The position numbers and the translations under genes are program-made. From a virus (lineage: Duplodnaviria; Caudoviricetes): 64,000 bases of DNA. The stretch covers positions 192,001-256,000 of the IMG/VR virus record IMGVR_UViG_3300048598_000287. One strand, 5' to 3'. The notes beneath the pieces are model-generated. The model saw nothing but the letters and a program-made list of their open reading frames with translations. It had not been told where the DNA came from and searched no databases. This document shows positions 11,087-26,827 of the stretch, piece after piece (within the stretch, counting starts at the first letter, position 1; every line of letters starts with the position of its first letter).

Positions 11087-11158
11087 ACAGTCTCCTGAAA
11101 AAAATGTATATTCAACTGATGATAATATATATTTTATGCTAAACAATAGGATACTCAT

Positions 11159-11608
11159 ATGATATCGTCAGGACTTCTTATAACAGATGGAATCCGTTTC
11201 TTGGCAGAGCTTCCTCTATACCAATCTCCCATAGATCATGGATATGATCTTCCAAAAGGACATGTCGAGCCATTTGATGCCGATTATAGAGCCAGTGCAT
11301 TCCGGGAAGCCAAAGAAGAAACCGGGCATGATTTTGATGCATACATGGATATGGCCGTTCCACTATCTGATTCGCCCGTTAAATATATAAAGGGAAAGCA
11401 GATAATTATTTATCTACTTAAACTCTTACCGGAAGATATGCCGGAAATTTCAGAATATCATTGTGACAGTTTTTTTGCCGATAAGAAAACAGGAAAGCAA
11501 TCACCCGAAGTAATTGCATATGAATACAAGCCGCTTAAAGAAATACGCAGATGGCTTTTCTCAAGTTATGGGAAAACTTTCGATATTCTTAAAATATTCA
11601 CAGAATGA
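11159..11608 (+). CDS. Nudix hydrolase, paralog of 9716-10297 without the leader
   Basis: PKGHVEPFDADYRASAFREAKEETG; shares SSGLLITDG..FLAELP and YDLPKGHVE with the upstream paralog. Confidence 0.85.
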   Translation: MISSGLLITDGIRFLAELPLYQSPIDHGYDLPKGHVEPFDADYRASAFREAKEETGHDFDAYMDMAVPLSDSPVKYIKGKQIIIYLLKLLPEDMPEISEYHCDSFFADKKTGKQSPEVIAYEYKPLKEIRRWLFSSYGKTFDILKIFTE

Positions 11609-11635
11609 AAAATCCCGGCAATGCCGGGATTTTTT
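11608..11635. terminator. Bidirectional intrinsic terminator
   Basis: aaaaatcccggca-a-tgccgggattttt between convergent genes. Confidence 0.8.
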
Positions 11636-12791
11636 AATCCTGATCGCTTACCATATTTCTTTCATGCCTAGAACCTATATATAACAATCCGATGTTGATT
11701 GTATATAGCAAAACACATACAGGAAGCAAAACATTAATATCAAGGTGTTTTAGAAACAACGCCGCTATCCCTGCGAATCCCCATCCGCTAAGAGTAAACG
11801 AATGAATTGTTGATGTATTGTTTATGCCGTATTTATCCGCGATAAAACTAGGAAGAAGAGAGAATCCTCCGCCGTAATTCATATTAAGTATCATAATCAT
11901 TATAACGAACATTATAGTAGATGGAAAGAAAATAGATCCCATGCATATCAGCGCGCTTAATGCAAATACGATAACATACGGAAACCATCTGTTAGTATGA
12001 TCACTTATCCATGCGAATCCAAACCTTCCGCCTGCATTGAAAACTGCGCTCAATGTGCAAAATACCGTTGCAAGTCCTATTTCTACCCCTAAATGCTTAT
12101 ATAGTTGGGCTTCCTGTGAAATGAAGGCAAGACCGCATGCGATGTTCAGGAAGAAGAACAGGCAGGTTGAAATATATGGCAACGTGAATGCAATATTCTT
12201 AAGCTTTACAGTTTCGACATTTTTTGCCATATAGTTAACGGGAAATTTACAGAAAAGAAAGGCGCAGATGACCAGCGGTATAAGATATATCCCGGTAAGT
12301 ATGTAAAATGCATTATCTATTGAGAAATTACTTGTCAGATATGTGTAAAGCGGACTTGAAAATGATTTGGCAAGTCCGAACGAAAGTATAGCTATTGCGC
12401 TTGCTACCGCTTTGTTATGTCTGAAATACAGCATCAACGTTTTTATTGGTGCCACATATCCAAGTCCGCAGCTGCATCCGAACAGGAATCCGTAGGAAAT
12501 GTAGAACAGTGTAACGCTATGTATATGGCAGGCTAGTCCGCTAAGCATGAATCCAGATGCGAACAGAACGACTGACATGACATATACCTTTTTAGGATTC
12601 TTCTCGACGAATTTTCCCATGAACGCCGCGGATAGTCCAAGAAACAATATTGCAAGAGAAAACGCAAATGACATGTCATGATTTAACACTGCTGTCACAT
12701 GGCTTGAAAGAAGACTCCACGCATATACCTGACCTATGCATAGCGAAAGAAAAATTGTTGCCAGGACTGTCCTTATCTGAAGGATTTTCAT
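11634..12791 (-). CDS. MFS transporter, oxalate:formate antiporter (OFA)-like
   Basis: About 12 hydrophobic segments; IGQVYAWS, FLGLSAAFMGKFVEK, GLGYVAPIKTL, FNAGGRFGFAWISD and YGGGFSLLPSFIADKYG motifs. Confidence 0.85.
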   Translation of the reverse strand: MKILQIRTVLATIFLSLCIGQVYAWSLLSSHVTAVLNHDMSFAFSLAILFLGLSAAFMGKFVEKNPKKVYVMSVVLFASGFMLSGLACHIHSVTLFYISYGFLFGCSCGLGYVAPIKTLMLYFRHNKAVASAIAILSFGLAKSFSSPLYTYLTSNFSIDNAFYILTGIYLIPLVICAFLFCKFPVNYMAKNVETVKLKNIAFTLPYISTCLFFFLNIACGLAFISQEAQLYKHLGVEIGLATVFCTLSAVFNAGGRFGFAWISDHTNRWFPYVIVFALSALICMGSIFFPSTIMFVIMIMILNMNYGGGFSLLPSFIADKYGINNTSTIHSFTLSGWGFAGIAALFLKHLDINVLLPVCVLLYTINIGLLYIGSRHERNMVSDQD

Positions 12792-12876
12792 ATATACCTC
12801 TCTATTTATGTTATTAGACGCCGTATGATATTCTTTGAATGCACATAATTCAATGATTCTATAAGAAGTCTAATAA

Positions 12877-13026
12877 CATGATACAGAAAATATAATGAAT
12901 CAATGGAATATATGCAAGACTGGAAGTTAATAAAGATATAATTTATATGAAGGATATAAACTATTAATATGATTGTCCTATCGACACAACATACACTCAA
13001 GTTCGCTAATGCAAGAAAGCAGGATG
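12877..13026 (+). repeat. tnpB-like element 5' end, copy 1 (contains late promoter and first 19 codons)
   Basis: Gap-free 150 bp match to the reverse complement of 24878-25027, with about 20 mismatches counted by eye. Confidence 0.9.
12955..12963 (+). promoter_or_regulatory. Late promoter motif TATAAACTA in tnpB-like end
   Basis: 5 nt before ATG 12969. Confidence 0.7.
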
Positions 13027-13565
13027 AAATTCTCATCCTGCTGTCTGAATGGCGCAGAGTGATGCAGCTGATCTGTGACGACCTGTGGAGTAACGGATAC
13101 TGCTGGATGGAAGACGGATGCATCCATGAGTTCAATGTACGCAAATTCAAGCTCTCATTACCTAAATACCTGGACTACAACCGTTTCAGCATAGACACGT
13201 GGCTAAGCGGACGTATGCTCAGTTAATTGGTCACGTGGCTAAGCGGACGTATGCTCAGTTCATTGGTCACGCAGCTAAGCGGCAAGCTCCGTGCAATGCT
13301 AAGCAAGCAGTCGGCGCGGATATATGTATTTGACAGGCTATGCGGACAGGGCGAATACAGCGAACGGCTCTGGGCAAAGATAGAAGAATCGATGCCGAAG
13401 AAGCCGGATTTAAGTGATGCGGGAATAGAGATCAGCTCTAAATGCGCGGATTTCATGGAAACGCCCGGTGGAAAGTTCTACGGATACGTCAGGATCAAAT
13501 CTACGGGACGAGAACACGTCAGGATTCCCATCTGCAGGCATTCCAGGCTGAAGAAATACACGGAC
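12969..13565 (+). pseudogene. tnpB: TnpB/Cas12f-like RNA-guided nuclease, N-terminal remnant
   Basis: STQHTLKFANARK...TWLSGRMLS...KPDLS...GYVRIKSTG..VRIPI resembles the N-termini of phage-borne TnpB-like proteins (recalled, not searched). In-frame TAA at 13224-13226; no RuvC or Zn-ribbon half; runs into a GC-rich repeat. Confidence 0.6.
13196..13283 (+). repeat. 36 bp tandem duplication inside tnpB remnant
   Basis: cacgtggctaagcggacgtatgctcagtt(a/c)attggt twice, plus a partial third unit. Confidence 0.95.
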
Positions 13566-13737
13566 GGAACCCGGGAACGCCCGGAAAGGTGACGATGTGC
13601 TCAAACGTTCCCGGAGGCTCATTGCACCGGCCCCGCGGGAAATGTAGATTAGACACGCGGAGCGGTGCCGGATCCGCCCGGGGTCGCTGGGCGATGAACC
13701 TCGGGATCTTGCGCCGCAGGTTAGCTAGTCGTTAGGC
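13562..13737 (-). repeat. GC-rich imperfect palindrome, partial attC-like site (copy A)
   Basis: Starts GCCTAAC (RYYYAAC) on the minus strand and has an internal hairpin. Roughly 80% identical, inverted, to 18680-18827. No matching L'/R' end seen. Confidence 0.5.
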
Positions 13738-13856
13738 GAACAAAAAATAAAGCCAGAAAACGCCATTCCTAATATCAAAACAGTCCAGTCGTCCATGACT
13801 GGGCAATATGCATCAGGAGCCCATATTTGCCAAAAAAAATGTATATTTTAAGTAAC

Positions 13857-15509
13857 ATGATAGCTAATATAAACGAACACAAAAGTCGCATAGCGAAGCA
13901 CATCAAGGATAACGGGGTTTATTACACACCTGACAATCTTGCTGACTTTGTTGCACGCGCAGTTTGGAGGAATATTGGAAATCATAAAGTCGGCACCGTA
14001 TTTGATCCTGCTGTAGGCGAAGGGAGCTTATTGAAGGCATTGTTTAAGTATGCCCCAAATAAGACCATTAGTTACAAAGGTTCAGATATAGATCAAGATG
14101 CTATTCAATCATGTATTACGAATGAGGCATTTGGTAGTGAGTTTAAATTTTCAGTTAAAGATTTTGTAGAATCAATTGACCAATCATTTGGCCTGTTTCA
14201 AGATATTAATGTTGAATATTCTGATGTTATAATTATGAACCCGCCTTATGTAAGAACTCAGAATCTTTCAAATGAAAAAATTAAGACTGTTGCAAAAGAG
14301 CTAGGATTAACAGGGCGTGTTGATTTAGCACATGTATTTATTGCTGGTTCTGCACGGTTTTTGCGAGCAGGTGGAATACTTGCTGTAATTACTTCGAATA
14401 AATTTATGCAAACTCTTGCAGGAGAGGGTCTTCGAATCGTCATAAAGAATGAATTTGAAATCTGTGAAGTCTGGGACTTTGGAGATACAAAACTATTTGG
14501 CGCGGCGGTTCTTCCAATGGTTATGGTTTTGCGAAAGAAACCATGCGAAAATGGACAGGGTGAATTTTATTCTTGTTATAAATGTAATGAAAATCAAAAC
14601 AGGAATTTACCAGTCGAAAACGACAGTCTAATTAATGAACTTATTAGCGCGGGCTTTACTATCAACTGCGGTTCATTACTTAATGGAGCTAGCGAAAATC
14701 GTAAAGTCTGGGTATCTTCAGATGAACAAACAAATAAGTTTCTTGATTCAGTGAAAAAGAATTGCTGGAGAACATTTGGAGATGTATCAAAAATATCTGT
14801 TGGAATCAAGACAACTGCCGATGATGTATTTATCAAGCAAAACTGGAATAGCTTTATACCAAGACCAGAGCTACTTAAACCGCTAGTGACACATGAAGTG
14901 GCTGGAAATATTTATCCTTCCGATATCCAGTCAACCCGCTCCGTATTGTACACACATGAACGTGATGGCGCAAAAAAAAGACCTGTAGATCTTTCTCTAT
15001 ATCCAATCTCTAAAAAATTCCTAGAATCCAATAGAGCACGCCTTGAATCTAGAGATTATATAAAGAAAGCAGGTAGACTTTGGTATGAAATTTGGGTGCC
15101 ACAGGATCCAGCAGTATGGTCAAAGCAAAAAATCGTATTTCGTGAAATTTCAGAGTTGCCACAATTTTGGCTTGATAATAGTGGCTCTGTTGTAAATGGC
15201 GATTGCTATTGGATTGCATTTGATGAATCTGCTCATCCAGATCTTATTTGGTTAATGCTTGGAATTGCCAATTCTGCATTCATTGTTAAATATTACGATG
15301 TTGTATTTAATAATAAAATATATGCTAATCGTAGGCGATTTATGGCTCAATATGTTCAAACATTTCCAATACCAAATCCTGAATCAAAAAGCTCTAAGGC
15401 CATTATTGATTTAGTCAAAGTGATTTTCAACGATAGACTTCCTCAAGAGTCTTGGGCTCATAAGTTAGATACACTTGTTAATAAATCATTCGGATTAGAT
15501 AAATCCTGA
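13857..15509 (+). CDS. Type II N6-adenine DNA methyltransferase (gamma class, TaqI/Eco57I-like), intact
   Basis: GVYYTP, FDPAVGEG (motif I), MNPPY (motif IV), and a C-terminal TaqI_C-like region (KIVFREISE). Confidence 0.9.
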   Translation: MIANINEHKSRIAKHIKDNGVYYTPDNLADFVARAVWRNIGNHKVGTVFDPAVGEGSLLKALFKYAPNKTISYKGSDIDQDAIQSCITNEAFGSEFKFSVKDFVESIDQSFGLFQDINVEYSDVIIMNPPYVRTQNLSNEKIKTVAKELGLTGRVDLAHVFIAGSARFLRAGGILAVITSNKFMQTLAGEGLRIVIKNEFEICEVWDFGDTKLFGAAVLPMVMVLRKKPCENGQGEFYSCYKCNENQNRNLPVENDSLINELISAGFTINCGSLLNGASENRKVWVSSDEQTNKFLDSVKKNCWRTFGDVSKISVGIKTTADDVFIKQNWNSFIPRPELLKPLVTHEVAGNIYPSDIQSTRSVLYTHERDGAKKRPVDLSLYPISKKFLESNRARLESRDYIKKAGRLWYEIWVPQDPAVWSKQKIVFREISELPQFWLDNSGSVVNGDCYWIAFDESAHPDLIWLMLGIANSAFIVKYYDVVFNNKIYANRRRFMAQYVQTFPIPNPESKSSKAIIDLVKVIFNDRLPQESWAHKLDTLVNKSFGLDKS

Positions 15510-16104
15510 TGGTATTGGTATTTGTAGCTTTGTATTCTTGACCTTTCCTTCAAATCGAGGAAAGAACTTAAAGAACTCTTTACCAGAGCACAAATAGTAA
15601 TTTTCAATAGTTAGGCTATCCTCAAGAATTGATGCGTAAATAATGAGGTAGCGAACCATATACGCAAGATAGGGTGTTTTCCAAGCAGCATCAATTACAA
15701 AATCCTCATCAGGCTGATGGAGCCCCAAATCAATTGTTGGAGATGTTTGAAGCTTAATCTCTAAAAGTTGATTTGGGATATCTGGAAACTGACCACTATC
15801 TTGCCCAATTTCATAGCAAAGTAAGCGACAAATCTTTTCATGAAGATAATATCCTCTATTTCGATCATCGGTCATTCCTCCATAAGGAAATTGCATTAAG
15901 AGCAGAGGCTTGAGTTGCTGGCCAATCTCATCAATTGTTAATAGTGTTCTCGGGATTGGTTCGTCTAAGCACGATGCTTGAGAATTAAATTTAAGAGATG
16001 TTCCTTTTGGCCTTACTTCAAAACTATCAGAAGAAAGTATACGAGATGTAAGTTGCTTAGGCTCTAGTCTTGCTTGATATTTATGTGTAAGTGTTCCAGT
16101 TTTA
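15495..16104 (-). pseudogene. Putative cognate restriction endonuclease, 5'-truncated by IS256
   Basis: Convergent with the MTase; GQFPDIPNQLLEIKLQ fits a PD-(D/E)xK motif. The frame stays open upstream of ATG 15896 (KTGTLTHKYQAR...) right up to the IS end at 16105. Confidence 0.7.
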
Positions 16105-17449
16105 GATAATGCAACCCTTTTTTCTGTAAATTTATTTCTTCACTTTCTTCATCGCTTTGGGGTTTAAGTAAATCTTACCATCAGTCCATTCGTCGTTTTG
16201 CTCCATAAGTAGAGCACCAACAAGCCTTAGACATGATTCATCATTAGGGAATATCCCTACGACACGGGTTCTACGACGTATTTCTTTGTTCAGTCTCTCT
16301 AAACAGTTGCTAGTCCTGATCTTGCGCCATGCATCCTGTTTGAAGGCATAGAAAGTCATTCCGTCTTCATAGTTCGCTTCTAGCCAAGAGCTGAAATCGG
16401 AGGCCCGCTTGCGGTACTGCCCTATTATTTTCTTGGCCACGGCTCTGGCTTGTTCGAGGGTCTCTTGTCCATAGATACGGCGCATGGCTTCGCCTATCTC
16501 TTTGCGCATGTCGTTTCTTGGCACCCTGTTCTGGGCGTCTTGTGCCATATGGAAAAGGCATCGTTGCCAAGGGACTGATGGAAATACTGCTTTGCGGGCA
16601 TTACGAAGTCCTGCGTGATCATCGCTTATAATCAACTCCATTCCTGTAAGACCCCTACCGGTTAATGACTCTAAGAATTGTCTCCAGTTTGTTTCGGCTT
16701 CACTGCTAGAAGTGTCTACACCTAAAATCTCTCGCTGGCCCTTCGCATTGAGTCCAACTGCGATCAGTATGGCCCGATCGCATACTTGACCGTCCTTGCG
16801 TACTTTCTGATATTGAGCGTCCAGCCATACGACTTGCATGGGGCCCAGTTCTCGGCTCCTGAATTTCTGCACCTCCGCATCAAGGCCCTGCGCTGCCTTG
16901 GAGACCTGGGATGAGCTTATTTCAAGCCCGCAGAGTTTCTCCAGTATCCTTGTGACCTTTCGGGTCGATACGCCTTGCACATACATTTCTGCCAGAGCTA
17001 AGCGTAACGCCTTTTCAGATCTTGTGGCTGCCTCTAAAGACTTGGGATAAAACCCACTTTCTCGGGTTTGCGGAATGTCTAAGGCTACTTTTCCTAAACC
17101 TGTCGTTATTGATCGAGGTTTAAACCCATTAGCATAGTCCATACGCTCATCAGTACGCTCATAGGGTTGTGCTTTCAGGTAGCTTGATCGTTCCACTTTC
17201 ATTGCCTCATTCATCATAATCCGAAATAAGTCGAGGATTGCATCAGGGCCTCGCTCCACAAGCATGTTTAAAATGTCTGCGGAATTTGTATATTCAGCAT
17301 TGGAGTTCTTCATCTGTTTTCCTTTAGTTGAAGTTTGTCGTAATTCCAAAACTAAAAGAATTGAAGGACTCCATCTGGCCCTTCCCCAATCACCGTAGGG
17401 TGACTTGGTGGAGGGGCTGATGAATTTACAGAAAAAAATTTACACTATC
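16105..17449 (-). mobile_element. IS256-family insertion sequence (1345 bp)
   Basis: Imperfect terminal IRs (gataatgcaac...ttctgtaaat / gatagtgtaaa...ttctgtaaat) around a transposase gene; flanks show no target-site duplication. Confidence 0.92.
16132..17349 (-). CDS. IS256-family DDE transposase
   Basis: AEMYVQGVSTRKV, WLDA, ISDDHAGL, WQRCLFH and TSNCLERLNKEIRRRTRVVGIFPN motifs. Confidence 0.95.
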   Translation of the reverse strand: MELRQTSTKGKQMKNSNAEYTNSADILNMLVERGPDAILDLFRIMMNEAMKVERSSYLKAQPYERTDERMDYANGFKPRSITTGLGKVALDIPQTRESGFYPKSLEAATRSEKALRLALAEMYVQGVSTRKVTRILEKLCGLEISSSQVSKAAQGLDAEVQKFRSRELGPMQVVWLDAQYQKVRKDGQVCDRAILIAVGLNAKGQREILGVDTSSSEAETNWRQFLESLTGRGLTGMELIISDDHAGLRNARKAVFPSVPWQRCLFHMAQDAQNRVPRNDMRKEIGEAMRRIYGQETLEQARAVAKKIIGQYRKRASDFSSWLEANYEDGMTFYAFKQDAWRKIRTSNCLERLNKEIRRRTRVVGIFPNDESCLRLVGALLMEQNDEWTDGKIYLNPKAMKKVKK

Positions 17450-17850
17450 GAATCTTCGGCAGAGACGTAGTTGATTTCGAATTCGTTGACACCGAAAGAA
17501 TGGATGATGTTTTTTAGTTCCGAAATCAGTTTCTGCTCAATGTAAGTCCTGGCATTTTTGCGAAGCTTGTCACGCTGATTCTTGTTACTTTGGGTTATAC
17601 CGAAAAAAGATTTGTCAATGGCAATGTCGATATCTTCGGAAAAGCGTCGAATGAGCTTCCATCCTTTGCTGAGGGATGTTCCTCCTTTGAACGAAAAGGA
17701 TCCTTTGCAGGAGGACAAGGAAAGAGCCTTGAGAAGGGTGGTCACCCACCAGTCTTTTTCGATGATTGTGTCACTGACACCGGTTTTCTCCGAGGCTTGC
17801 TCGAGAAGTGTCCTTTTTTCGGAGAGGGTGTATTTGCTCCATGAACTCAT
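17450..17850 (-). pseudogene. AbiEii/AbiGii-family nucleotidyltransferase toxin, 3'-truncated by IS256
   Basis: IEKDWWV and FKGGTSLSKGWKLIRRFSEDID motifs; only about 134 codons precede the IS terminus. Confidence 0.85.
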
Positions 17851-18458
17851 GTCAAGGCTCCTTTGACTGTGCAGCGCATCCACGTCGGCATTAAAAGGAT
17901 GTCTTTTTCAAAGGATTTTTCTTTGGAGCAGGCTAAAACGAGTTCTATTATCCTTGCACGTTGTTTTTCGGAAATATCATTTTCTCCGATTTCCTTGAGT
18001 GCAAGCATAAGCAGTAGCATTCTCTTGTCATTGAACAGAGCGTATTTCGCGGTTTGTCGCTTTAAGATAATGCTTCTTTTGCCAATTTTGATAGTTCTTG
18101 ACGATCCGGTGGTGACGAATTCTTCTTTTGTCGGAACCTGGTCGGAAAGGCCGAGAGCGTTTGCCGCGGTGACCCCAGCAGGAACAATGTCGACTTTGTC
18201 CCTTTCGGCAATTGCATATGCGATTTCTTCAAGGGATGGGAATTCTGTCCCGAAACGATTTTTTTTCGGATACAAGTAAACGCCGCCATATAGACGAATG
18301 AGATCTCCGCCCTTTGCCATTCTCGAAAAGGCTCGGGTTATGGCGGATTCCTCGCCAATGGAAGCGTAGTCCTTGACACAATGAATCTTGCCTCGGCCTT
18401 TGGCCTTGATGACTTCCTGAAGTTTTTTTGTCAGGTCTTTTTGCATGTTTTTATTCAC
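17847..18458 (-). CDS. DUF6088/AbiEi-like type IV antitoxin, intact
   Basis: N-terminal wHTH-like region (AFSRMAKGGDLIRLYGGVY) and AANALGLSDQVP motif; overlaps the start of the AbiEii gene. Confidence 0.8.
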   Translation of the reverse strand: MNKNMQKDLTKKLQEVIKAKGRGKIHCVKDYASIGEESAITRAFSRMAKGGDLIRLYGGVYLYPKKNRFGTEFPSLEEIAYAIAERDKVDIVPAGVTAANALGLSDQVPTKEEFVTTGSSRTIKIGKRSIILKRQTAKYALFNDKRMLLLMLALKEIGENDISEKQRARIIELVLACSKEKSFEKDILLMPTWMRCTVKGALT

Positions 18459-18497
18459 CCTTATGTCCGAAATTTAGTAAAAAAATCAGACATAAGG
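18459..18497. promoter_or_regulatory. Inverted repeat, candidate AbiE autorepression operator
   Basis: ccttatgtc...gacataagg immediately upstream of the antitoxin start; AbiEi proteins are known to bind promoter IRs. Confidence 0.5.
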
Positions 18498-18676
18498 AAA
18501 TCTCGCCATAAATAACTATCATATTCTGTTTTTGAATTTAACATTCATTTTAAATTCCCGCTTAAACATTTTTCCCACTTATGTTATTATAGTACCTTTT
18601 CCTTTCTCCATTGGTGTAAAAATAAATTTTCTCACCTTTTTCCCCAGTTGTGCTATCATATTCTACGCTATTATAA

Positions 18677-18827
18677 TCATAACGACTAACTAACTCACAG
18701 CGCAGGATCCCGAAGAAGTCCATCGCCTAACGCCCCCGGGCGGATCCGAGCCAGCTCCGCGTTCCAAATCTACATTTTTTGCGGAACCGGTCCAATGAGC
18801 TTCCGGGAACGTAAGAGCCCATTGTCA
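18677..18827 (+). repeat. GC-rich partial attC-like site (copy B)
   Basis: Begins tcaTAACgactaactaac; inverted homolog of 13590-13734; merges into the DHH gene. Confidence 0.5.
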
Positions 18828-19450
18828 GGCAGGTCCTTTATGTCAAGGGAAGAATATTCTTTATCCAGGTCTATGGCATGCTGCTTAAGCCATTCGGATT
18901 CTTCGGGTGTCATTTCAGTATGTCCGTCAGAATATGCCTGTATCCATGAGTCGAAAGTATATTTTTCCTTGAACAGTTCAGTTATTTCCTGCGCCTTCGC
19001 AAATCTTGGATCATTTTTCTGCCACCGATCAAACACGTCCACATATCCGATAAGTACAGAAAGATGGATAAGGTCAAAATGCGCCTTGAAAAAATCATAG
19101 CATAGCATAGCTCCGCACTTTGATGTATCTATGATGATTCCATTGGCCGGATCATTATATTTCATAGCCGTGGGGTGATGGTCAAGGACAAGTATAGGAA
19201 GTCCGGTGCCACGAAGTATCCCCATTATCTTTTCAGGATAATAATCAGATGCGATTATACAGTCATATCCATCGGATATGGCAGGAATCTGTTCGCCTAC
19301 GCTTTCTTCTACATACCCATACCGCATTTCAATATACGTTATGTCATGATATACATTCTTCAGAACTAGATGCGATGCAGCGCCGTCCAAATCATAATGG
19401 GTAAGGTTAAGCACTTTAAGCGTAGGATTTTAAAAATATTCAAGATTCAT
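18813..19450 (-). pseudogene. DHH-family phosphoesterase pseudogene
   Basis: THYDLDG and LDHH motifs. In-frame ATG 19450 is followed by TAA at codon 7 (MNLEYF*NPTLKVLNLTH). The 3' end is replaced by repeat copy B and no DHHA1 region is present. Confidence 0.75.
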
Positions 19451-19500
19451 ATGTTTGTCCTATTGGGTTTTGAATGGATGAAAGGGAACTATATAATTTT

Positions 19501-19878
19501 CTAACGAAGGCATTCACATTTTTTAAGTGCATCTGATATCTCCTCACGGTCGGCAAGAGATGCTGAATCGGGAAGATGATCGAGTACGAAATCAATATAT
19601 GTATGCATTGATTCACATTTTGATTGATCATCCATATTTGTGTCAATTTGTTCTTCCAGGTCATCAATGTGGCCATCGATATCGCTAAGGCATTCCTTGA
19701 TGGATACTGCATCAAGCTGATTAACGATTTCGGTAAGCAGATCGGTAACCTGTTTCATTGTATATGTAGAACCCGGATCCGTTTTAGCAATCTGGGACAT
19801 CTTTTCAGACAGCAGTCGGCTCGTGTTGTCTATATATTCTTCGGCATCATCGGTATGTACTGCTAAATAATGATACAT
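19501..19878 (-). CDS. Hypothetical protein (125 aa, acidic)
   Basis: ATG after AAGGA; co-oriented with neighbours. Confidence 0.65.
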   Translation of the reverse strand: MYHYLAVHTDDAEEYIDNTSRLLSEKMSQIAKTDPGSTYTMKQVTDLLTEIVNQLDAVSIKECLSDIDGHIDDLEEQIDTNMDDQSKCESMHTYIDFVLDHLPDSASLADREEISDALKKCECLR

Positions 19879-19914
19879 ATGAATCCTTTTTTGAATGGGT
19901 ATCCGTTAATATAG

Positions 19915-19944
19915 AAATACATAGCCACGAGTGGCTATGTATTT
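19915..19944. terminator. Hairpin / probable terminator
   Basis: aaatacatagccac-ga-gtggctatgtattt, a perfect inverted repeat. Confidence 0.55.
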
Positions 19945-19956
19945 AAATTAAACGCA

Positions 19957-20271
19957 TCATCGCTTTGCAAATTTTGTCATCTTATCGCAAATCGTGCATA
20001 TAAGCTTGACATCATCAACGCGCATATGGCTAAGTTCTTTAATGCCAGATATGGCGTCTACGTTTTTCTTAAGTTCTTTCATGGTCTCATCGGCATCAAG
20101 CGTAACTCCGCTCAACTTAGCTGATTCAAACAATGCATCGATGAGTCCGGAGGATTTAAGCACCGCCATCCTACGATCACTGTCCCATATATCATCATTT
20201 TCTGATGAAGTTGTATTGCTAGACGTATTCCTAGAAAAGAATGCGTCTATTATTGATTTTATTATGGTCAT
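19957..20271 (-). CDS. Hypothetical protein (104 aa)
   Basis: ATG after AAGGAG. Confidence 0.65.
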   Translation of the reverse strand: MTIIKSIIDAFFSRNTSSNTTSSENDDIWDSDRRMAVLKSSGLIDALFESAKLSGVTLDADETMKELKKNVDAISGIKELSHMRVDDVKLICTICDKMTKFAKR

Positions 20272-20283
20272 TTTATCATCTCC

Positions 20284-22086
20284 TTATGGTTTAATGAAAT
20301 TTCTTAATATTATGCAATTCGGAATTTTCTGAATATCCGTATTATCGGCGCGCGTGTCACTTATACTCTTGCTATCGACTCTGTCATAATAATTGCATTC
20401 TTTATTATCCGGTTCGTTTACCGTCAATGGCATTACGCGTTGACTATCGGCGGCAACTTTCTTCCTTATATGCTCCATGGCGGCGCATAGGAATTTTTCG
20501 AATCTTTTTGATAGCTCGGTTGTTTTATCAAATGCATCGTAGCATTGGAAAACCGGGGATTTTTTATCCGATTCGGTGAAAAAATCAAAATTAACTTCAG
20601 CGCATACAGTTTTCCAATTGAAAAACATGGATTTCCTATTTATGAGGGATCCAAGGCAATGGTGAAATTTCACCACATATGCCCTCATCTGAAAGGTAGT
20701 CTTTATACGGAAATGTTCAATATACCACGGCATTTTATATGGGCATTTCATTATGTCATCATTAGGTATTATATTAAGTGCAGATTCGGCCATCGCCCTT
20801 TCATGTATTTCAGAACATTGCTTTAAAACAGTTTTCGCCGTCTTTCCTGAAGGAATGCATAATGGTATCTTTCCGTCGAGTTCCTTTATTATAGTTAACG
20901 CATCATTTAGATATGTATTAAAATCATGGATAAGCCCTAGCCGTATATGATATTCAGTTGTATCTTTTGAGTCTGGCTTAAAAAATTCAAACATTGATAA
21001 AAATGCACGTTTATCAGTAGATATTTTGATAAGGATTTCGGATATTGTTTGCCGGTTTAATTCAGTCATACGGTAATATTCAGCATCAACAGGCTCATCC
21101 GCAGCCTCCATACTATCATCTATGTCCGTATCCTCCATGATATCGTGCTGGTTACCATGGATTTTTCCTAAATTTTCATATGCTGAATTGATGATAAGCC
21201 GTGAATCATTGTTCAAAGCCCTGCATGTTCCCGTAGCATTTGCTTCCGATGTGAACGGTATGTTAAGAAAATTTTTACAATAGTATATAGATGGGATTTT
21301 GAGAAGATACCTGGATGTTGCTGGTTTACATAATACAGTGTCATATGAATCAGAAGAACAATATTTATGCGGGTTTTCATCAGGTAAAGAAGACGTCAAC
21401 TTATATGTCCATTGTTCCATGGTATCAAAGAAAAGAACATATTTAGGAAACTTTCTGTTCATCTTCTGAAAAATATTCTTTATTTTCTTATTTACTGCTG
21501 CACGAGAAGAACATTCTTTAACATCTATTGCTGTATTATTAATACGGCAGATCAGGACGCCAAAATTAGGTTCCGAATGTTTAGAAATATCTGCTAAAAG
21601 CTGCATCCCGCAATCCGATAGCATTGCCAATTTAATAATGTTCTCTTCAAGCCAATAATGAGTCATATATGACGCATTGATGTTCATTGACCTAGCGCGA
21701 GAAAGTATTTCCTGTATACGGGCAATCATTAAACTGTCAATGCCTAGCCAAGGTGCATATTTATCGATGATGAGCCTTTTAGCTGAATCAGATAATACAT
21801 ATTCATAGATATCATTATTGTCACTGGAATCAGTATGACAATTTATTCTTAGCGGATCGTTATATTTCACATCAATATATGTCCGGTATTTATCGCAGGC
21901 AAAAAATAGTCGCATGTTATCATCAGACATGTTGCAGTCTACATAATCAGAAACGCACAAGATTTTATTTGCATTTAAAGCAGGAGCATCAGAGGCATTT
22001 ATGAAATCAGACCAGTGTAAATAAAATGTTCCATTTGATATACTATCTTTGCTATAACGCATTTGGCATCCTGTATTTGCTTCCAT
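20284..22086 (-). CDS. Hypothetical protein (600 aa), weak PcfJ-like C-terminus
   Basis: Long ORF; FHHCLGS resembles the PcfJ HHCV motif, weakly. Confidence 0.6.
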   Translation of the reverse strand: MEANTGCQMRYSKDSISNGTFYLHWSDFINASDAPALNANKILCVSDYVDCNMSDDNMRLFFACDKYRTYIDVKYNDPLRINCHTDSSDNNDIYEYVLSDSAKRLIIDKYAPWLGIDSLMIARIQEILSRARSMNINASYMTHYWLEENIIKLAMLSDCGMQLLADISKHSEPNFGVLICRINNTAIDVKECSSRAAVNKKIKNIFQKMNRKFPKYVLFFDTMEQWTYKLTSSLPDENPHKYCSSDSYDTVLCKPATSRYLLKIPSIYYCKNFLNIPFTSEANATGTCRALNNDSRLIINSAYENLGKIHGNQHDIMEDTDIDDSMEAADEPVDAEYYRMTELNRQTISEILIKISTDKRAFLSMFEFFKPDSKDTTEYHIRLGLIHDFNTYLNDALTIIKELDGKIPLCIPSGKTAKTVLKQCSEIHERAMAESALNIIPNDDIMKCPYKMPWYIEHFRIKTTFQMRAYVVKFHHCLGSLINRKSMFFNWKTVCAEVNFDFFTESDKKSPVFQCYDAFDKTTELSKRFEKFLCAAMEHIRKKVAADSQRVMPLTVNEPDNKECNYYDRVDSKSISDTRADNTDIQKIPNCIILRNFIKP

Positions 22087-22186
22087 ATATTCTTTTGCTA
22101 AAGTTCATCAGTAATTCTTTAATATAGTAAAAAATAACCGTTATGTCAATGCTATTTTAAAAAATCGCCTGATGTTCCGAATTCCA
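21999..22186. repeat. Direct repeat copy 1 (188 bp)
   Basis: Matches 25023-25207 with 5 substitutions and 2 small indels. Confidence 0.95.
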
Positions 22187-24935
22187 CTTTGGGGAGGGCA
22201 TCGACGATGTCCATGGTTTTGATGCTTAGGTCGATGACAGAAAGGAGGGTGTCGAGGATGTAGCGGGGGTTTTGGTGTTCTTTTGCCCAGTCGTTGCAGT
22301 CGTTTGTGATTAGGCTCGCTTTGTCCTGGGTGACGGCATAGCGCTCGACTATCCAATCGATGGCGGATTTACCGTTTACGATGTAATCGTAGGCACGGGC
22401 GGGAATGTTTTCAATGGTGATCTGAGGGTTGTAGAGAATCTTGAATTTGTCGGACTTGCCTGCGAAGCGCATTTTGTCAGGAATGCGGAAATACTTGTAG
22501 TCTTCAGGGGTGCCGCTTGCGCTTTTGTCCCCTGCGATGTTTATGCCGAGTTTTTTGGCGAGCGCCCTGGCCTCGGCGGTGGATTTCTCATAATTCAGAT
22601 GGAGACCGGCTAGGGCGCGGCCCGCTTTTTCAAAGGCGGCGAAATCTTCGTAGCCGGAGACGAAAATGATTTTCGGGAGCGATTTCTTGAGGTCGTCTTT
22701 GAAAGTTTCCCGGTAGTCCTTGCTGTGGAGGAACCCGTAGACGTAATAGAAGATGTTTTCTTTGGTGATTTTTTTGTTTGCACCGTAGATGCGTCTGGCT
22801 TCAGCTAGAGCCCAGTTGGAGACCCCGTCTTTCCTTTCAAGTTCCTGTGCAAAGAGGTCGCCTTTATTTTGTTCCGAATAGTAATGGAACGGGAAACATT
22901 GACTTTTCCCTATGAGTTCAAGGTCAGGAAGAGTATTTGAAATGATACAGGAAAAATCTTTGGTTACGCCAATTCCAGAAACGCAGATGACGAGGTTTTG
23001 CGTATCGGGGGTGGGGAAAAGACGAGGGCTAAGGCCAAAGCACTCTATTAAATCATTTTGAGCATATAAATTTTGTTTTTGAAAGGGTCGATAAGATCCC
23101 AATCTTACAAAATCATCGGAATATTCAATATTTTTTCCATTGACTAGTGATTTTTTTAGTCCGCGTGTCCAACTTATTTTTGTTGGATCACTGCTGAGAA
23201 TGTCTTCCAGTTTCTTTCCTGATTTTACTGCTTTTTTATATAATTCCCGCTGAGAATTGTAGAAATCTACACATGATTTCATATTCTTTTGCAGGTTTTT
23301 CTCCGAGAATGAATAAACCCAAGAATCTCTATTTGTAGCCACACCAATAGCATTTGTTTCAAACAAACTTTTTGTTCCCGTGTCAAATTTCTTTTCAGGA
23401 GCAAGTGGTGTTAGCGTATCAAATACGCCGCCACGTTGGTTGATCCAGTCGGCTTTTTCGTTGGGTGTAATTTGTTCCCACTTTATATGTTGAATGGATA
23501 CAGCTTCTTTCAATATTTCCAGTTTACGCTCCCGGGTCAGGTAGTCGCCGATGTCGTGGTAATGGATTTCGCAGGGCCGCCCTTTCTTCGCGGGATTGTA
23601 AACGAGGAAGGTGATGGTCACGGGAGTACGGCTGCCGCTCCCGAATATTTTGCCGCCTTCTTTCCTTGAAAGTTCTCCGCTCGTCCGCTGGTTCCCTCGT
23701 AGGTTGAGTACCCAGATGCCCGTGAACTCTTCGACCAGACATTTCCGCATACCGTCCTGCCCGTTGCCGTCCAACCAGCCGCCATTGGAGATAAAGGCGA
23801 CGATGCCGCCTTCCTTGTTCTTTTGAATGCGGTCGCTTGCAAAACGGAATGCCTTGATATAGGAATCGTAAAGGGATTTTTTCAGGTTTGCGGTGGATTT
23901 CGCGGCATAGCTATCTTCAACCCTGGCGTCCAATACAGGGTAGCTTAAATTCTGGGCGTTGTCGTTTGCGCTTTTTTGCCCTACGGAATAGGGCGGGTTC
24001 CCGATTATCACGCGGACAGGAATTCTACGCTGCCGTTCCACTTCCCTGTAGTTGTCATCAAAGTAGCCATCCAGCTTCGCCGCCTCCTGGCTGCTTCCGT
24101 CATCGCTTTCCGCCGTCTGGAAGGTATCGGTCAGGCAGATTCCGTTAAAGGGCAGGTATGCGGCCGACTTGTTCAAATCGTGGTAGACGCTTTCGATGTT
24201 CACGTCGGCAATGTAATAGGCGAGCAGCACGATTTCATTCGCGTGGAGTTCCTTTTTGTATTTGCGCTCCATGTCCTCCTTTTGAATGAGTCCGCTCTGA
24301 AGGAGCCTCGTGATGAACGTGCCCGTTCCCGTGAACGGATCCATGATGTGAACGTCGCGGTTCGTCAGATCGGTTTTGAATTCATCGTGCAGAAGAATAT
24401 TCACGGAATGGATGATAAAGTCAACGCACTCGATCGGCGTATAGACTATGCCCAGTTTTTCAACCGTGGTCGGGAACGCGGATTTGAAGAACTTTTCGTA
24501 GAGTTCCTTGATGACTTTCTGCTTGCCTTCGAGGTTATCGAGCTGTCCGACGTTTGTGCGCACGGAGGTATAGAATTTTTCCAGTTCCCCGGCCTCTTCG
24601 TTCACGCCCTGCTTCTGGAGTTCCCTGATGACGCGGGCCATGGTACGCGATATGGAATTGTTGTCGACGAACTTGTAGTCGGCGAACAGGGCGTCGAATA
24701 CAGGCTGCGTGATCATGTGCTGGGCGAGCATCTGCACCGCGTCGTTTTCGGTCACGGAATTGTTGATGTTCTTCCGGAGCGCCGCCAGATATTTTTCAAA
24801 GAGCTGCTTTGTCCGGCTGTTCTGCTCCGCTCGCAGGTAGTCAATCCGGGCGATGTATTTCTTCGCGATGACGCCGACATCCTGCTTTCTTGCATTCGCA
24901 AAATTGATCGTATGATTTGTTGAACGGGCCATCAT
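22152..24935 (-). CDS. Chimeric orphan methyltransferase: tnpB-like N-terminus, type ISP MTase/TRD, and tail of the neighbouring phage gene
   Basis: GIVYTP, DPFTGTGTF, IIGNPPY, KSQCFP, YVYGFLHS and YIVNGKSAIDW are type ISP (LlaGI/LlaBIII-like) C-terminal motifs; no nuclease or helicase domains. Starts MMARSTNHTINFANARKQD and ends EFGTSGDFLK. Confidence 0.88.
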   Translation of the reverse strand: MMARSTNHTINFANARKQDVGVIAKKYIARIDYLRAEQNSRTKQLFEKYLAALRKNINNSVTENDAVQMLAQHMITQPVFDALFADYKFVDNNSISRTMARVIRELQKQGVNEEAGELEKFYTSVRTNVGQLDNLEGKQKVIKELYEKFFKSAFPTTVEKLGIVYTPIECVDFIIHSVNILLHDEFKTDLTNRDVHIMDPFTGTGTFITRLLQSGLIQKEDMERKYKKELHANEIVLLAYYIADVNIESVYHDLNKSAAYLPFNGICLTDTFQTAESDDGSSQEAAKLDGYFDDNYREVERQRRIPVRVIIGNPPYSVGQKSANDNAQNLSYPVLDARVEDSYAAKSTANLKKSLYDSYIKAFRFASDRIQKNKEGGIVAFISNGGWLDGNGQDGMRKCLVEEFTGIWVLNLRGNQRTSGELSRKEGGKIFGSGSRTPVTITFLVYNPAKKGRPCEIHYHDIGDYLTRERKLEILKEAVSIQHIKWEQITPNEKADWINQRGGVFDTLTPLAPEKKFDTGTKSLFETNAIGVATNRDSWVYSFSEKNLQKNMKSCVDFYNSQRELYKKAVKSGKKLEDILSSDPTKISWTRGLKKSLVNGKNIEYSDDFVRLGSYRPFQKQNLYAQNDLIECFGLSPRLFPTPDTQNLVICVSGIGVTKDFSCIISNTLPDLELIGKSQCFPFHYYSEQNKGDLFAQELERKDGVSNWALAEARRIYGANKKITKENIFYYVYGFLHSKDYRETFKDDLKKSLPKIIFVSGYEDFAAFEKAGRALAGLHLNYEKSTAEARALAKKLGINIAGDKSASGTPEDYKYFRIPDKMRFAGKSDKFKILYNPQITIENIPARAYDYIVNGKSAIDWIVERYAVTQDKASLITNDCNDWAKEHQNPRYILDTLLSVIDLSIKTMDIVDALPKVEFGTSGDFLK

Positions 24936-25027
24936 ATAAATAGTTTATATCCTTCATATAAATTATATCTTTATTAACTTACACTCTTGCATATATTCCA
25001 TCAATTTACTATATTTTCTGTATTATG
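24878..25027 (-). repeat. tnpB-like element 5' end, copy 2
   Basis: Homolog of 12877-13026; contains TATAAACTA and the ATG of the chimeric MTase. Confidence 0.9.
24941..24949 (-). promoter_or_regulatory. Late promoter motif TATAAACTA upstream of chimeric MTase
   Basis: 5 nt before ATG 24935. Confidence 0.7.
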
Positions 25028-25207
25028 AAATCAGACCAGCGTAAATAAAATGTTCCATTTGATATGCTATCTTTGCTATAACGCATTTGCATCCTGTATT
25101 TGCTTCCATATATTCTTTTGCTAAAGCTCATCAGTAATTCTTTAATATAGAAAAATAACCGTTATGCCAATGCTATTTTAAAAAATCACCTGATGTTCCG
25201 AATTCCA
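25023..25207. repeat. Direct repeat copy 2 (185 bp)
   Basis: Contains the 3' end of gene 25173-26699, the intergenic region, and a frameshifted 5' stub of gene 20284-22086. Confidence 0.95.
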
Positions 25208-26699
25208 TCCGTTCCTCTTCGGTAAATGTAGGAATTTCAATATTTGAAAGGGCGTCGTCAAAAATTTTCTTAGCTGCTGAAGCATATCGTTCATCTACGA
25301 TAATGCTGTCATGAACGGTGCAGACAGGACAATGTAAGTTATTTTTAATATTTTTGTAAACTATTCCAAATACAAGATGGCTTTCTGTACGTTGAAGTTC
25401 ATGCGCCAAAGCTGTATGATTTTTATATTTAATTAGCTGTATTACCTTATAAAGAGAAGGAAACTCTGCTTTCCATATATATTGAATGGCTTTAACGAGC
25501 CGATGCTTCTTGTGAGAGAAGAACGGTCCGCAGAAAAGGCATGTGAGAAATTCTTTCTTGACTTCAGAACGGTCGCATGAAAGACACATAGAATCATTAA
25601 GAAAAGAAAGAAAATGTTCATAAAGAGAACCAGAAACAAGAAGTGAACGATAGGAAGAGAGGTCAGAGTGGAAAGTTTTAATGAAAGAAGAAGTAAATAA
25701 AGTGGAATAATGTGAGTAATCAAATTTCATATCTATATATGAATCCACAATATGTTCTCGCCCGTCATAATGTGATATGAAGTTATCGAACACCTTGTAT
25801 AGAAAAGCTCCCTGAGAACTTTTAATGTCAATTCCCACAGTTGGACGTCCATCACATAATATACAGTTTTTTCTGACTTCTTTTTTTATCTGCGTTATGT
25901 TTGTATGGACTCGTCCATATGCGTCTCTTTTGCAATATATAGAATATGGATCATTGACATATCCGTCAAATGCGTCAACCTTGTGCAATTCTTCAGACAT
26001 TCGTTCGGCTGATATCTTATTTTTTGATACCATATCTGATAATATTCGATGGCTTTTATCTTTATCTATTGAAAAATGCTGTAAATCTTCATATAGTTCC
26101 CTGATTTGTGGAAGACTCATCTGTTCTTTCTTTACTTCTTCTGCATGAAGCGAAAGCCTTCTATAAAGTCTTGGATTTGAAATTTTAATTACCCGGACTC
26201 CGCCCTGCCTTTTTGGAATGTCGCCTGATGTCTCCTGATTTTTTGTAATCAGATATCTATGGACATATAACAGGAAATCTGAAGTGAACCAATAGTGCTT
26301 ACATTTTCCTTTCACTTCTTTCGTACCTTTTATATATGAGTCGCTTCTACCGATGATGCCCATTTGTATAAGGATTTTTACATATTTTAGATAGTTAGAT
26401 CCTATTATTCGATTGTATATGCGTGAATATATAGGAACCGCCCATCGTGTAAGATCTATAGGCCATCCATGTTTCATTGCTATGTTGAATGCTATCTGAT
26501 ATCGTCGATATATCGTATTTATGATGTACAGAAGGTATTCATAGTTTTCCGCTATGCTTCCAGATAGCTCATTATTGGTTTGCATATATTCAAATATACG
26601 GTTAGGCACAAGCATCTTGTCGAAAGTGTATAAGCTGTCCGACTCTGCGAAGTGGTCTAGTACGTTTATTGAAGAAAATGCGTTTTTTGTCATCGCCAT
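25173..26699 (-). CDS. Divergent family-A polymerase-like protein
   Basis: YGRVH, GIDIKSSQ (motif A-like), RSEVKK (motif B-like), LQRTES and TVHDSI (motif C-like) in the expected order; no exonuclease motifs seen; start uncertain. Confidence 0.55.
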   Translation of the reverse strand: MAMTKNAFSSINVLDHFAESDSLYTFDKMLVPNRIFEYMQTNNELSGSIAENYEYLLYIINTIYRRYQIAFNIAMKHGWPIDLTRWAVPIYSRIYNRIIGSNYLKYVKILIQMGIIGRSDSYIKGTKEVKGKCKHYWFTSDFLLYVHRYLITKNQETSGDIPKRQGGVRVIKISNPRLYRRLSLHAEEVKKEQMSLPQIRELYEDLQHFSIDKDKSHRILSDMVSKNKISAERMSEELHKVDAFDGYVNDPYSIYCKRDAYGRVHTNITQIKKEVRKNCILCDGRPTVGIDIKSSQGAFLYKVFDNFISHYDGREHIVDSYIDMKFDYSHYSTLFTSSFIKTFHSDLSSYRSLLVSGSLYEHFLSFLNDSMCLSCDRSEVKKEFLTCLFCGPFFSHKKHRLVKAIQYIWKAEFPSLYKVIQLIKYKNHTALAHELQRTESHLVFGIVYKNIKNNLHCPVCTVHDSIIVDERYASAAKKIFDDALSNIEIPTFTEEERMEFGTSGDFLK

Positions 26700-26827
26700 A
26701 CAATATACATTTTTCTGAATCATTTTTGGCAAAATTCATGAAAAATGGCAGTTATGCTCATTAAAAACGTATTTTAATGGTGCAGAGCACCTTGGTAAGG
26801 AAATGCTAATGGTTTCGGAGATAACAG

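What the first reader, a model, noticed from the sequence alone, without database searches (positions are those of the whole stretch)
12877..25207. Disarmed-defence region: three captured defence systems each keep only the protective half
Seen: (1) an intact type II MTase (13857-15509) whose convergent endonuclease is cut at its 5' end; (2) an intact DUF6088/AbiEi-like antitoxin whose AbiEii toxin is cut after about 134 codons; (3) a type ISP enzyme lacking nuclease and helicase, with an open 927-codon MTase-TRD frame. Established: orphan MTases protect phage DNA from restriction, and AbiEi-type antitoxins neutralise AbiEii toxins. Inference: the phage stockpiles host immunity genes as counter-defence, and selection keeps the protective genes and removes the toxic ones. 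Caveat: one IS256 rearrangement accounts for both (1) and (2), so there may be only two independent events.
Basis: partly seen in the sequence, partly recalled or inferred. Interest (0 to 1): 0.85.

Follow-up and report, generated by a model that had tools for sequence, protein, structure and literature searches.

The report
Jumbo-phage island of captured methylase genes
A sewage jumbo phage carries a fast-changing island where insertion sequences have pasted in pieces of bacterial defence loci; the two DNA-methylase pieces look like ordinary phage anti-restriction genes (one of an unusual type ISP origin), and the antitoxin piece looks like a passenger.

Summary
(1) An M.BseCI-like type II methylase is intact, and its convergent endonuclease lacks about 130 N-terminal codons. 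(2) AbiEi is full length, and AbiEii stops at about codon 134. (3) A type ISP enzyme is reduced to coupler-MTase-TRD. One IS256 (16105-17449, no target duplication) abuts both cut genes.

New points:
- An intact donor M-R-C locus is 100% identical over 2375 nt.
- The ISP piece is fused in frame to the first 19 codons and upstream region of a TnpB-type IS.
- The ISP piece lies between 188-bp direct repeats, and one relative has the empty site.

Near-identical phages from other sewage samples show that the island is in flux. Most lack the AbiE block. About a quarter of the contigs tallied carry a frameshifted methylase. One relative has a different methylase plus ISL3 in the same slot.

The "counter-defence stockpile" reading is therefore plausible for the methylases. 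It is unsupported for AbiEi. Survivorship bias could produce the "protective half only" pattern without any selection for counter-defence.

Another first-stage reader of this scan noted the same TnpB-linked captures on this same stretch. Phage orphan methylases are already known; the ISP-derived, TnpB-fused form is a new variant.

The parts
12868..13580 (+). TnpB-type IS remnant, copy B: left end plus codons 1-192, with a 36-nt tandem duplication (13196-13267) that introduces a stop
   Evidence: 87% nt identity to genome 97477-96795. tblastn of the intact 432-aa copy A gives residues 1-192 at 85%. Copy A has the Pfam Cas12f1-like TNB domain.
13590..13734 (+). Repeat b, an inverted copy of 18680-18827 (78%). 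Its inner end is joined to the captured R-M DNA through 5 nt of microhomology.
   Evidence: No coding signal and weak fold z-scores. Unexplained.
13857..15509 (+). Intact M.BseCI-like gamma-class N6-adenine type II methylase. It contains an A8 tract at 14965-14972.
   Evidence: The A7 frameshift allele is seen in L086/L087.
13730..16104 (.). Captured R-M block, 100% identical to donor contig L091
   Evidence: blastn gives 2375 of 2375 nt identical. L091 continues with the intact 333-aa REase and an HTH C protein.
15495..16104 (-). Endonuclease remnant, residues ~131-333 of 333. The frame is open, but the first ATG is at 15896.
16105..17449 (-). IS256-family element (1345 bp, ends begin GATA, transposase 17313->16132), with no 8-bp target duplication
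   Evidence: Pfam Transposase_mut E 9.5e-113. The limits come from variants that share exactly this block. Flanks are shown.
17450..17850 (-). AbiEii toxin remnant, ~134 native codons, cut at the IS256 end
   Evidence: Pfam 2-70 of 238 and PADLOC 3-120 of 309. Sequence.
17847..18446 (-). Full-length AbiEi/DUF6088 antitoxin-type gene
   Evidence: Its 90% cluster holds only this contig plus a 209-aa fused form.
18680..18827 (-). Repeat b', overlapping the 3' end of a short DHH-like ORF (18770-19414)
   Evidence: Positions 18710->17977 are also present in L096-L100.
21999..22186 (-). Direct repeat DR1: last 10 codons of the 519-aa gene, the intergenic region and the first 29 codons of the 600-aa gene
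22152..24935 (-). 927-codon ORF. It consists of 19 TnpB codons, the type ISP coupler-MTase-TRD unit, and a tail of 8 residues (GTSGDFLK) read from DR1.
   Evidence: DPFTGTGTF and NPPY are kept.
24878..25036 (-). TnpB-type IS left end, copy C: ~100 nt upstream plus codons 1-19. It supplies the start codon of the ISP frame.
25023..25207 (-). Direct repeat DR2 (96% to DR1). Its copy of the 600-aa gene start is frameshifted.
   Evidence: Relative L088 has one repeat copy and no insert.

Best explanation
This is a real, hypervariable accessory island of a T4-like jumbo phage from sewage.

Shown: pieces of bacterial or plasmid defence loci sit next to TnpB-type IS left ends. The junctions where both partner sequences can be read, or nearly so, carry 5-11 nt of microhomology. 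This fits illegitimate recombination rather than transposition. IS256 has reshuffled and eroded the pieces.

Inferred: two of the retained genes act as orphan methylases that pre-methylate phage DNA against the corresponding host restriction enzymes. These are the M.BseCI-like MTase and the type ISP coupler-MTase-TRD unit. The ISP unit would be expressed from the TnpB upstream region and start codon.

Inferred: the AbiEi gene and the stubs of the endonuclease and AbiEii are passengers of one IS256 rearrangement. AbiEi is not a maintained counter-defence gene.
For: Phage identity: portal, Gp23 and gp32; 277-kb virus record.

Capture from a cellular or plasmid donor: L091 is 100% identical over 13730-16104. 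It carries the intact REase, a C protein and a YefM/YoeB-like pair, and its flanks do not match the phage.

ISP fusion: TnpB codons 1-19 are followed by ISP sequence starting at LlaBIII residue 720. An 11-nt microhomology lies at the 3' junction.

Independent assemblies: contigs from other samples span both ISP junctions, or for L101 (which starts inside DR2) the TnpB-ISP and 3' junctions: L002, L086, L087, L101, L105, L106. L093 spans the R-M/IS256 junction.

Methylases look competent: both are full length with motifs I and IV.

Methylases recur: L101 has a different MTase in the same slot, directly downstream of the same TnpB left end. L086 and L101 have a further Eco57I-like gene nearby.

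The ISP frame is open in three allele groups. ATCGAT occurs 104 times, observed/expected 1.13.

AbiE as passenger: it was found only in this contig, is absent in the V2 relatives, and occurs elsewhere only as a truncated fusion.
Against:
- The MTase carries a frameshift (A8 to A7) in 8 related contigs, so it is dispensable at least at times.
- L088 lacks the ISP insert.
- The low dN/dS of ISP alleles (0.15-0.4) comes from clustered recombination tracts, so it does not prove selection in the phage.
- N-terminally shortened ISP ORFs are common in databases and may be pseudogene pieces.
- The host is unknown.
- Three junctions of this contig have no independent support: IS256|AbiEii', TnpB'|b and b'|DHH ORF.
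Confidence: 0.6

Rival explanations
1. Neutral wreckage. The island is IS-driven junk in a large tolerant genome, and none of the three 'protective' genes does anything for the phage. Protective halves remain only because a nuclease without its methylase, or a toxin without its antitoxin, would kill whichever cell carries it. Only such remnants can be observed.
For: - Nested erosion among near-identical genomes. The RE remnant is 204 codons in this window and 92 in the V2 relatives. The TnpB remnant is 192, 49 or 1 codons.
- AbiE is lost in most relatives.
- The MTase is frameshifted in 8 contigs.
- There is no target duplication at any IS256 copy.
Against: - Two unrelated methylases occupy the same slot in different relatives, and a third sits in a second slot.
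- The ISP piece is in frame at both ends and open in every readable allele.
- The upstream region of the R-M block is kept in three different junction contexts.
Confidence: 0.25
2. Full stockpile. All three genes, AbiEi included, are selected counter-defence genes, and the toxic halves are removed by selection.
For: The pattern holds three times out of three in this genome. AbiEi is full length with its own upstream region. Phage-encoded antitoxin mimics are known for other systems, e.g. DarTG (bioRxiv 10.1101/2023.12.14.571748, listed).
Against: The whole AbiEi gene is seen only in this contig. Relatives lack it or carry a truncated fusion. One IS256 event explains two of the three truncations. 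From my own knowledge, not tested here: AbiE is described as a type IV system in which the antitoxin does not bind the toxin, so cross-neutralisation of a host AbiEii is uncertain.
Confidence: 0.1
3. Assembly artefact. The arrangement in this contig, at least the path RE'-IS256-AbiEii', is a mis-join across a repeated IS256 in a metagenome.
For: IS256 (1345 bp) has at least four different right-hand neighbours in different contigs: AbiEii', TnpB', GmrSD and a second TnpB locus. No other contig holds the IS256|AbiEii' junction.
Against: Both outer sides of the two halves run into single-copy phage backbone, so one phage genome must hold both halves. The R-M/IS256 and b'/AbiE junctions are seen in other samples. 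The ISP junctions are seen in at least six contigs.
Confidence: 0.05

Closest known systems
Phage orphan DNA methyltransferases used against restriction (general class; from my own knowledge, e.g. T4 and P1 Dam and the Bacillus phage multispecific MTases)
   Same: A phage-borne MTase without an active cognate nuclease, homologous to bacterial R-M methylases. The likely target site is abundant in the phage genome.
   Different: Here the donor R-M locus is caught at 100% identity with the nuclease stub still attached. The gene is polymorphic (intact or frameshifted) in the population.
[quoted passage not shown]
   Same: The coupler, gamma-class MTase and TRD align end to end (E 4.5e-207) and keep motifs I and IV. 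This is the same 'coupler-MTase-TRD unit' that PMC4872093 used as a separate molecular-replacement search model.
   Different: There is no Mrr nuclease and no SF2 ATPase. The N-terminus is replaced by 19 codons of a TnpB gene, and a C-terminal tail of 8 residues comes from a neighbouring phage gene. Only two ISP-like matches at 40% identity exist in 50,697 phage records.
AbiE type IV toxin-antitoxin / abortive infection system (AbiEi + AbiEii)
   Same: Gene order, ATGA overlap and a full AbiEi.
   Different: The toxin is cut at about 40% of its length by IS256. The locus is in a phage, and intact AbiEi is seen in one contig only.
IS256-family elements and the rearrangements they cause
   Same: Mutator-type DDE transposase and imperfect terminal inverted repeats. 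Adjacent genes are cut exactly at the IS ends.
   Different: It resides in a virulent-type jumbo phage genome. No target duplication is seen in any of the four contexts.
Phage-encoded antitoxin mimics (e.g. the anti-DarTG factor of a Vibrio cholerae phage, bioRxiv 10.1101/2023.12.14.571748)
   Same: The idea that a phage carries the neutralising half of a host toxin-antitoxin defence.
   Different: No evidence here that AbiEi is kept or used. It is a direct copy of a bacterial-type antitoxin, not a mimic.

Membership tests
Type II R-M methylase, M.BseCI-like (gamma-class N6-adenine) | Full-length catalytic domain with SAM motif I and catalytic NPPY, plus a TaqI_C-type specificity domain | tested here: met
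   PDB 7qw5 E 1.6e-108, residues 19-541 to 6-555 of 585. Pfam Eco57I, N6_Mtase and TaqI_C. DPAVGEG and NPPY seen in the translation.
Type II R-M system (complete) | Intact cognate endonuclease next to the methylase | tested here: not met
   Only residues ~131-333 of 333 remain. The intact form is seen in donor L091.
Type II R-M methylase | Methylates ATCGAT (specificity and activity) | not testable with these tools
   Specificity is inferred only from similarity to M.BseCI.
Type ISP R-M enzyme | N-terminal Mrr-family nuclease | tested here: not met
   No Mrr_cat_2 hit. The alignment starts at LlaBIII residue 720.
Type ISP R-M enzyme | SF2 helicase-like ATPase | tested here: not met
   No ResIII, DEAD or Helicase_C in the 927-aa frame. 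tblastn finds no other ISP piece in the 277-kb contig.
Type ISP R-M enzyme | Coupler + gamma MTase + ISP-type TRD | tested here: met
   Pfam ISP_coupler 7-125 of 126 and Type_ISP_C 2-341 of 342. PADLOC 736-1643 of 1646.
AbiE toxin-antitoxin | Full AbiEi antitoxin | tested here: met
   PADLOC AbiEi 3-192 of 202 and DUF6088 2-165 of 172.
AbiE toxin-antitoxin | Full AbiEii nucleotidyltransferase toxin | tested here: not met
   Covers 3-120 of 309 (PADLOC) and 2-70 of 238 (Pfam), and ends at the IS256 border.
IS256 family | Mutator-type DDE transposase and terminal inverted repeats | tested here: met
   Transposase_mut E 9.5e-113. Ends GATAATGCAAC... and ...GATAGTGTAAA (reverse complement).
IS256 family | 8-bp target-site duplication of a simple insertion | tested here: not met
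   Flanks are CAGTTTTA and GAATCTTC here, and also unlike in four other contexts.
TnpB / IS605-type element | RuvC-type nuclease with a C-terminal TNB zinc ribbon | tested here: inconclusive
   Intact copy A (432 aa, elsewhere in the genome) has the PF07282 TNB domain, E 3.9e-14. The two copies in this region are 5' fragments only. The right end and guide RNA were not identified.
Phage anti-restriction orphan methylase (functional class) | Phage DNA is methylated by the enzyme and thereby escapes the matching nuclease | not testable with these tools
   Needs a methylome or plating tests.

The most novel reading that the evidence does not exclude
The left ends of the phage's TnpB-type IS copies work as a capture-and-express platform. 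Host methylase modules land just downstream of them repeatedly: the ISP fusion at codon 19, the M.BseCI-like gene after codon 192, and a third methylase after codon 1 in relative L101. All would be driven by the IS upstream region. In addition, the ISP specificity domain is refreshed by gene conversion from host ISP genes. The alleles differ only in clustered TRD tracts, and one tract lies near recognition loop VI by approximate mapping. This would let the phage track its hosts' restriction specificities.
Probability: 0.15. Interest if true: 0.8.

Novelty: new variant of a known kind. Interest (0 to 1): 0.5.

Why it matters
Phage orphan methylases are textbook. It is rare, though, to catch the capture with the donor locus at 100% identity, the nuclease stub still attached, and a population of near-identical phages showing the later erosion step by step.

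The type ISP-derived methylase-specificity unit is a form not represented among 50,697 deposited phage genomes, apart from two distant hits. It is fused in frame to a transposon gene start. If it is active, it would show that single-chain restriction enzymes can be disarmed into protective methylases.

The case is also a caution. A 'protective half only' pattern need not mean selection for counter-defence, because the opposite remnants cannot survive.

Tried and rejected
- Nucleotide searches of 11000-29000 against deposited phages and plasmids found nothing.
- A single-protein scan of viral contigs with the 519-aa neighbour found no relatives.
- The genome-contig scan with the MTase gave only ~40% relatives, so no host clue. 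It did show the conserved convergent nuclease partner.
- Exact-pattern scans for the IS256|AbiEii' junction and for AbiEii' itself in viral and metagenome contigs found nothing. No AbiE donor was found.
- I considered that repeats b/b' are a TnpB right end or guide RNA, or an integron attC site. There is no similarity to copy A's 3' end, the fold z-scores are weak (-1.1 and -1.8), and the core-site match is only partial. I dropped the idea.
- I first read the 114-aa antisense ORF 12806-13150 as a phage paralog family. It is the antisense of the TnpB 5' region.
- The promoter and terminator scan was uninformative: 36 sites against 32 expected.
- I first took the dN/dS of the ISP alleles as evidence of selection. 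I downgraded it once the differences proved to be clustered recombination tracts.
- IS256 protein matches in plasmids were at most 50% identical, so they gave no host clue.

Full report
**What the window is.** The window is bases 192001-256000 of a 277-kb linear IMG/VR virus record that CheckV estimates as 66% complete. It encodes a T4-like portal, the Gp23 major capsid protein, gp32, a DnaB-like helicase and a UvsW-like helicase. Near-identical genomes (about 99.4% nt) occur in sewage and wastewater metagenome assemblies.

**Checking the three observations.**

(1) Methylase and endonuclease.
- The MTase at 13857-15509 is a full-length homologue of M.BseCI (E 1.6e-108).
- It keeps both catalytic motifs and matches a PADLOC type II MTase model end to end.
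- The convergent frame downstream was searched against 1.84 billion representatives. It matches only the C-terminal part of a ~333-350-aa family.
- tblastn with the best hit shows an open, 91%-identical match to residues ~131-333. The match stops exactly at the insertion sequence.
- That family is a PADLOC type II REase. It lies convergent and full length beside the MTase in 72 of 80 bacterial loci.

(2) AbiE.
- AbiEi is complete (PADLOC 3-192 of 202).
- AbiEii covers only 3-120 of 309.
- The two genes overlap in ATGA.

(3) Type ISP.
- The 927-codon frame aligns to LlaGI and to LlaBIII residues 720-1576 of 1578, that is coupler, MTase and TRD only.
- DPFTGTGTF and NPPY are intact. There is no nuclease or helicase domain.
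- No other ISP piece exists in the contig.

**The insertion sequence.** Comparing variants that share exactly one block defines IS256 as 16105-17449. Its ends are imperfect inverted repeats that begin GATA. One end abuts endonuclease codon ~131 and the other abuts AbiEii codon ~134. The 8-bp flanks differ.

**The donor.** Contig L091 was reported from three samples. It is 100% identical to 13730-16104. It then continues with the rest of the endonuclease (333 aa) and an HTH controller protein. Upstream it carries a YefM/YoeB-like pair. Neither flank matches the phage. The R-M piece was therefore taken very recently from a cellular or plasmid locus in which the nuclease is whole. No donor was found for AbiE. 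The nearest full-length ISP gene is only 80% identical in protein.

**A TnpB-type IS frames the region.**
- That sequence is the left end and 5' coding part of a TnpB-like gene. An intact 432-aa copy lies about 95 kb upstream in the genome and has the TNB zinc-ribbon domain.
- Copy B (12868-13580) keeps codons 1-192 and has a 36-nt duplication that introduces a stop.
- Copy C supplies about 100 nt of upstream sequence and the first 19 codons of the 927-codon frame.
- The 3' end of the ISP piece joins the last 10 codons of the neighbouring 519-aa phage gene through an 11-nt microhomology, again in frame.
- The whole insert lies between 188-bp direct repeats, 96% alike.

**Junctions.** The junctions where both partner sequences can be read, or nearly so, carry 5-11 nt of microhomology (the ISP 3' junction is read against an ~80%-identical stand-in for the donor). 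No microhomology could be tested at the ISP 5' junction because the true donor is not available. These features fit illegitimate, template-switch-like recombination rather than transposition.

**Population variants.**
- Independent contigs from other samples span both ISP junctions: L002, L086, L087, L105, L106. L101 starts inside DR2 and covers the TnpB-ISP and 3' junctions only.
- L088 has a single repeat copy and no insert. It is either an empty site or a pop-out.
- The common form of the left slot (V2: L084-L090, L092, L094, L095) reads: 125-aa gene | MTase | 92-codon nuclease stub | IS256 inverted | TnpB codon 49. It has no AbiE block and no DHH-like ORF.
- V2 cannot be the ancestor of this window, because the window keeps more of the nuclease and of TnpB.
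- This window also cannot give V2 by deletion alone, because the V2 junction keeps at least one donor-specific base that this window lacks.
- L093 joins the same MTase-stub-IS256 unit to a second TnpB family at about 45.5 kb of the genome. In L092 the IS256 abuts a GmrSD fragment.
- L101 has ISL3 and an unrelated 537-aa gamma-class MTase in the same slot, joined right after TnpB codon 1 and co-oriented with it.
- L086 and L087 carry an A7 instead of an A8 tract at 14965-14972, which splits the MTase. That allele is on 8 contigs.
- The whole AbiEi gene is found only in this contig. In L096-L100, positions 18710->17977 (AbiEi residues 1-154) are fused in frame to a YD-repeat paralog at a distant locus.

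**Selection.**
- Pairwise dN/dS among the three ISP allele groups is 0.15-0.40.
- However, all differences fall in two short tracts of the TRD, 22551-22839 and 22889-22979, and the rest of the gene is identical.
- These tracts are imported, so the ratio reflects selection wherever they came from.
- What remains as evidence for function is as follows. The frame is open in every readable allele. It is in frame at both ends. Methylases recur in this island.
- By approximate mapping onto LlaGI numbering, the L101 tract lies near recognition loop VI. This is an inference.
- ATCGAT is not avoided in the phage: 104 sites, observed/expected 1.13. A matching host nuclease would therefore be a real threat.

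**Verdict.** The region is real and the three 'halves' are as described. The best reading has three parts.
- It is an IS-driven, fast-turnover accessory island.
- The two methylases probably serve as anti-restriction genes, which is a known strategy. The ISP-derived, TnpB-fused form is a new variant.
- The AbiEi gene and the two stubs are by-products.

The 'only protective halves' pattern is also what survivorship alone would give.

Still unverified:
- methylation and expression;
- the host;
- three junctions of this contig's particular arrangement;
- the nature of the b/b' repeats.

Another first-stage note on the same stretch (e1-5710950) had already pointed to the TnpB link. I tested that here and it holds.

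Noticed in passing
window 11634-12791 (-): An MFS transporter gene (NCBIfam L-lactate MFS transporter E 6e-62, below its cut-off; also oxalate/formate type) sits inside the phage. It is kept in relatives L086, L088 and L101. This is an unusual phage cargo gene.
   Followed up: partly
window ~11080-11111; L086 15297-17333; L101 10771-12770: Relatives carry a 2-kb insert between the two NUDIX genes. [quoted passage not shown] This may be a further, possibly split, methylase slot.
   Followed up: partly
window 13590-13734 and 18680-18827: Inverted 145-bp repeats (78% alike) bound the R-M'+IS256+AbiE' block. Both captured blocks start at their inner ends. They are not coding, not clearly structured and not related to the TnpB 3' end.
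   Followed up: partly
window 13725-13740; L091 846-862; L086 9860-9880; L093 40-55: The left end of the captured R-M DNA has three different partners (repeat b, DHH-ORF codon 4, and an unknown sequence), all within 15 nt of the same donor position. This suggests either a recombination hot spot or a constraint to keep the MTase upstream region.
   Followed up: partly
window 14965-14972: The A8 homopolymer inside the MTase is A7 (frameshift) in L086/L087 and in 8 contigs in all. A second A8/A7 tract at 13825-13832 lies in the 5' region. This could be slipped-strand on/off switching or simple decay.
   Followed up: partly
window 22551-22839 and 22889-22979: ISP alleles of related phages differ only in these two tracts of the specificity domain (13% divergence in the first and about 40%, 36 of 90 nt, in the second) and are identical elsewhere. 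These are mosaic imports from unknown homologues.
   Followed up: partly
L096 5321-5950 (also L097-L100); genome ~25.9 kb: AbiEi residues 1-154 are fused in frame to the C-terminal part of a YD-repeat paralog inside the phage's YD-repeat gene array, in five samples.
   Followed up: partly
L092 3427-4053; L093 3767-3833; L105 13972-14324; genome 45.5-46.7 kb (L109 1026-2222): The IS256 right end abuts a GmrSD_N fragment in one contig. In others it abuts a second TnpB family (398 aa, OrfB_IS605 + TNB). Several IS families seem active in this phage lineage.
   Followed up: partly
window 18770-19414 (-): A 214-aa ORF matches only the N-terminal half of a DHH phosphoesterase (phrog_4771 positions 23-182 of 363). 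It runs into repeat b' and is absent from most relatives.
   Followed up: no
window 45160-45870 (-): A DnaJ-like gene (J domain plus CXXCXGXG zinc domain) lies in the phage replication/late region.
   Followed up: no
window 13196-13267: A perfect-register 36-nt tandem duplication inside TnpB remnant B carries an in-frame stop.
   Followed up: yes
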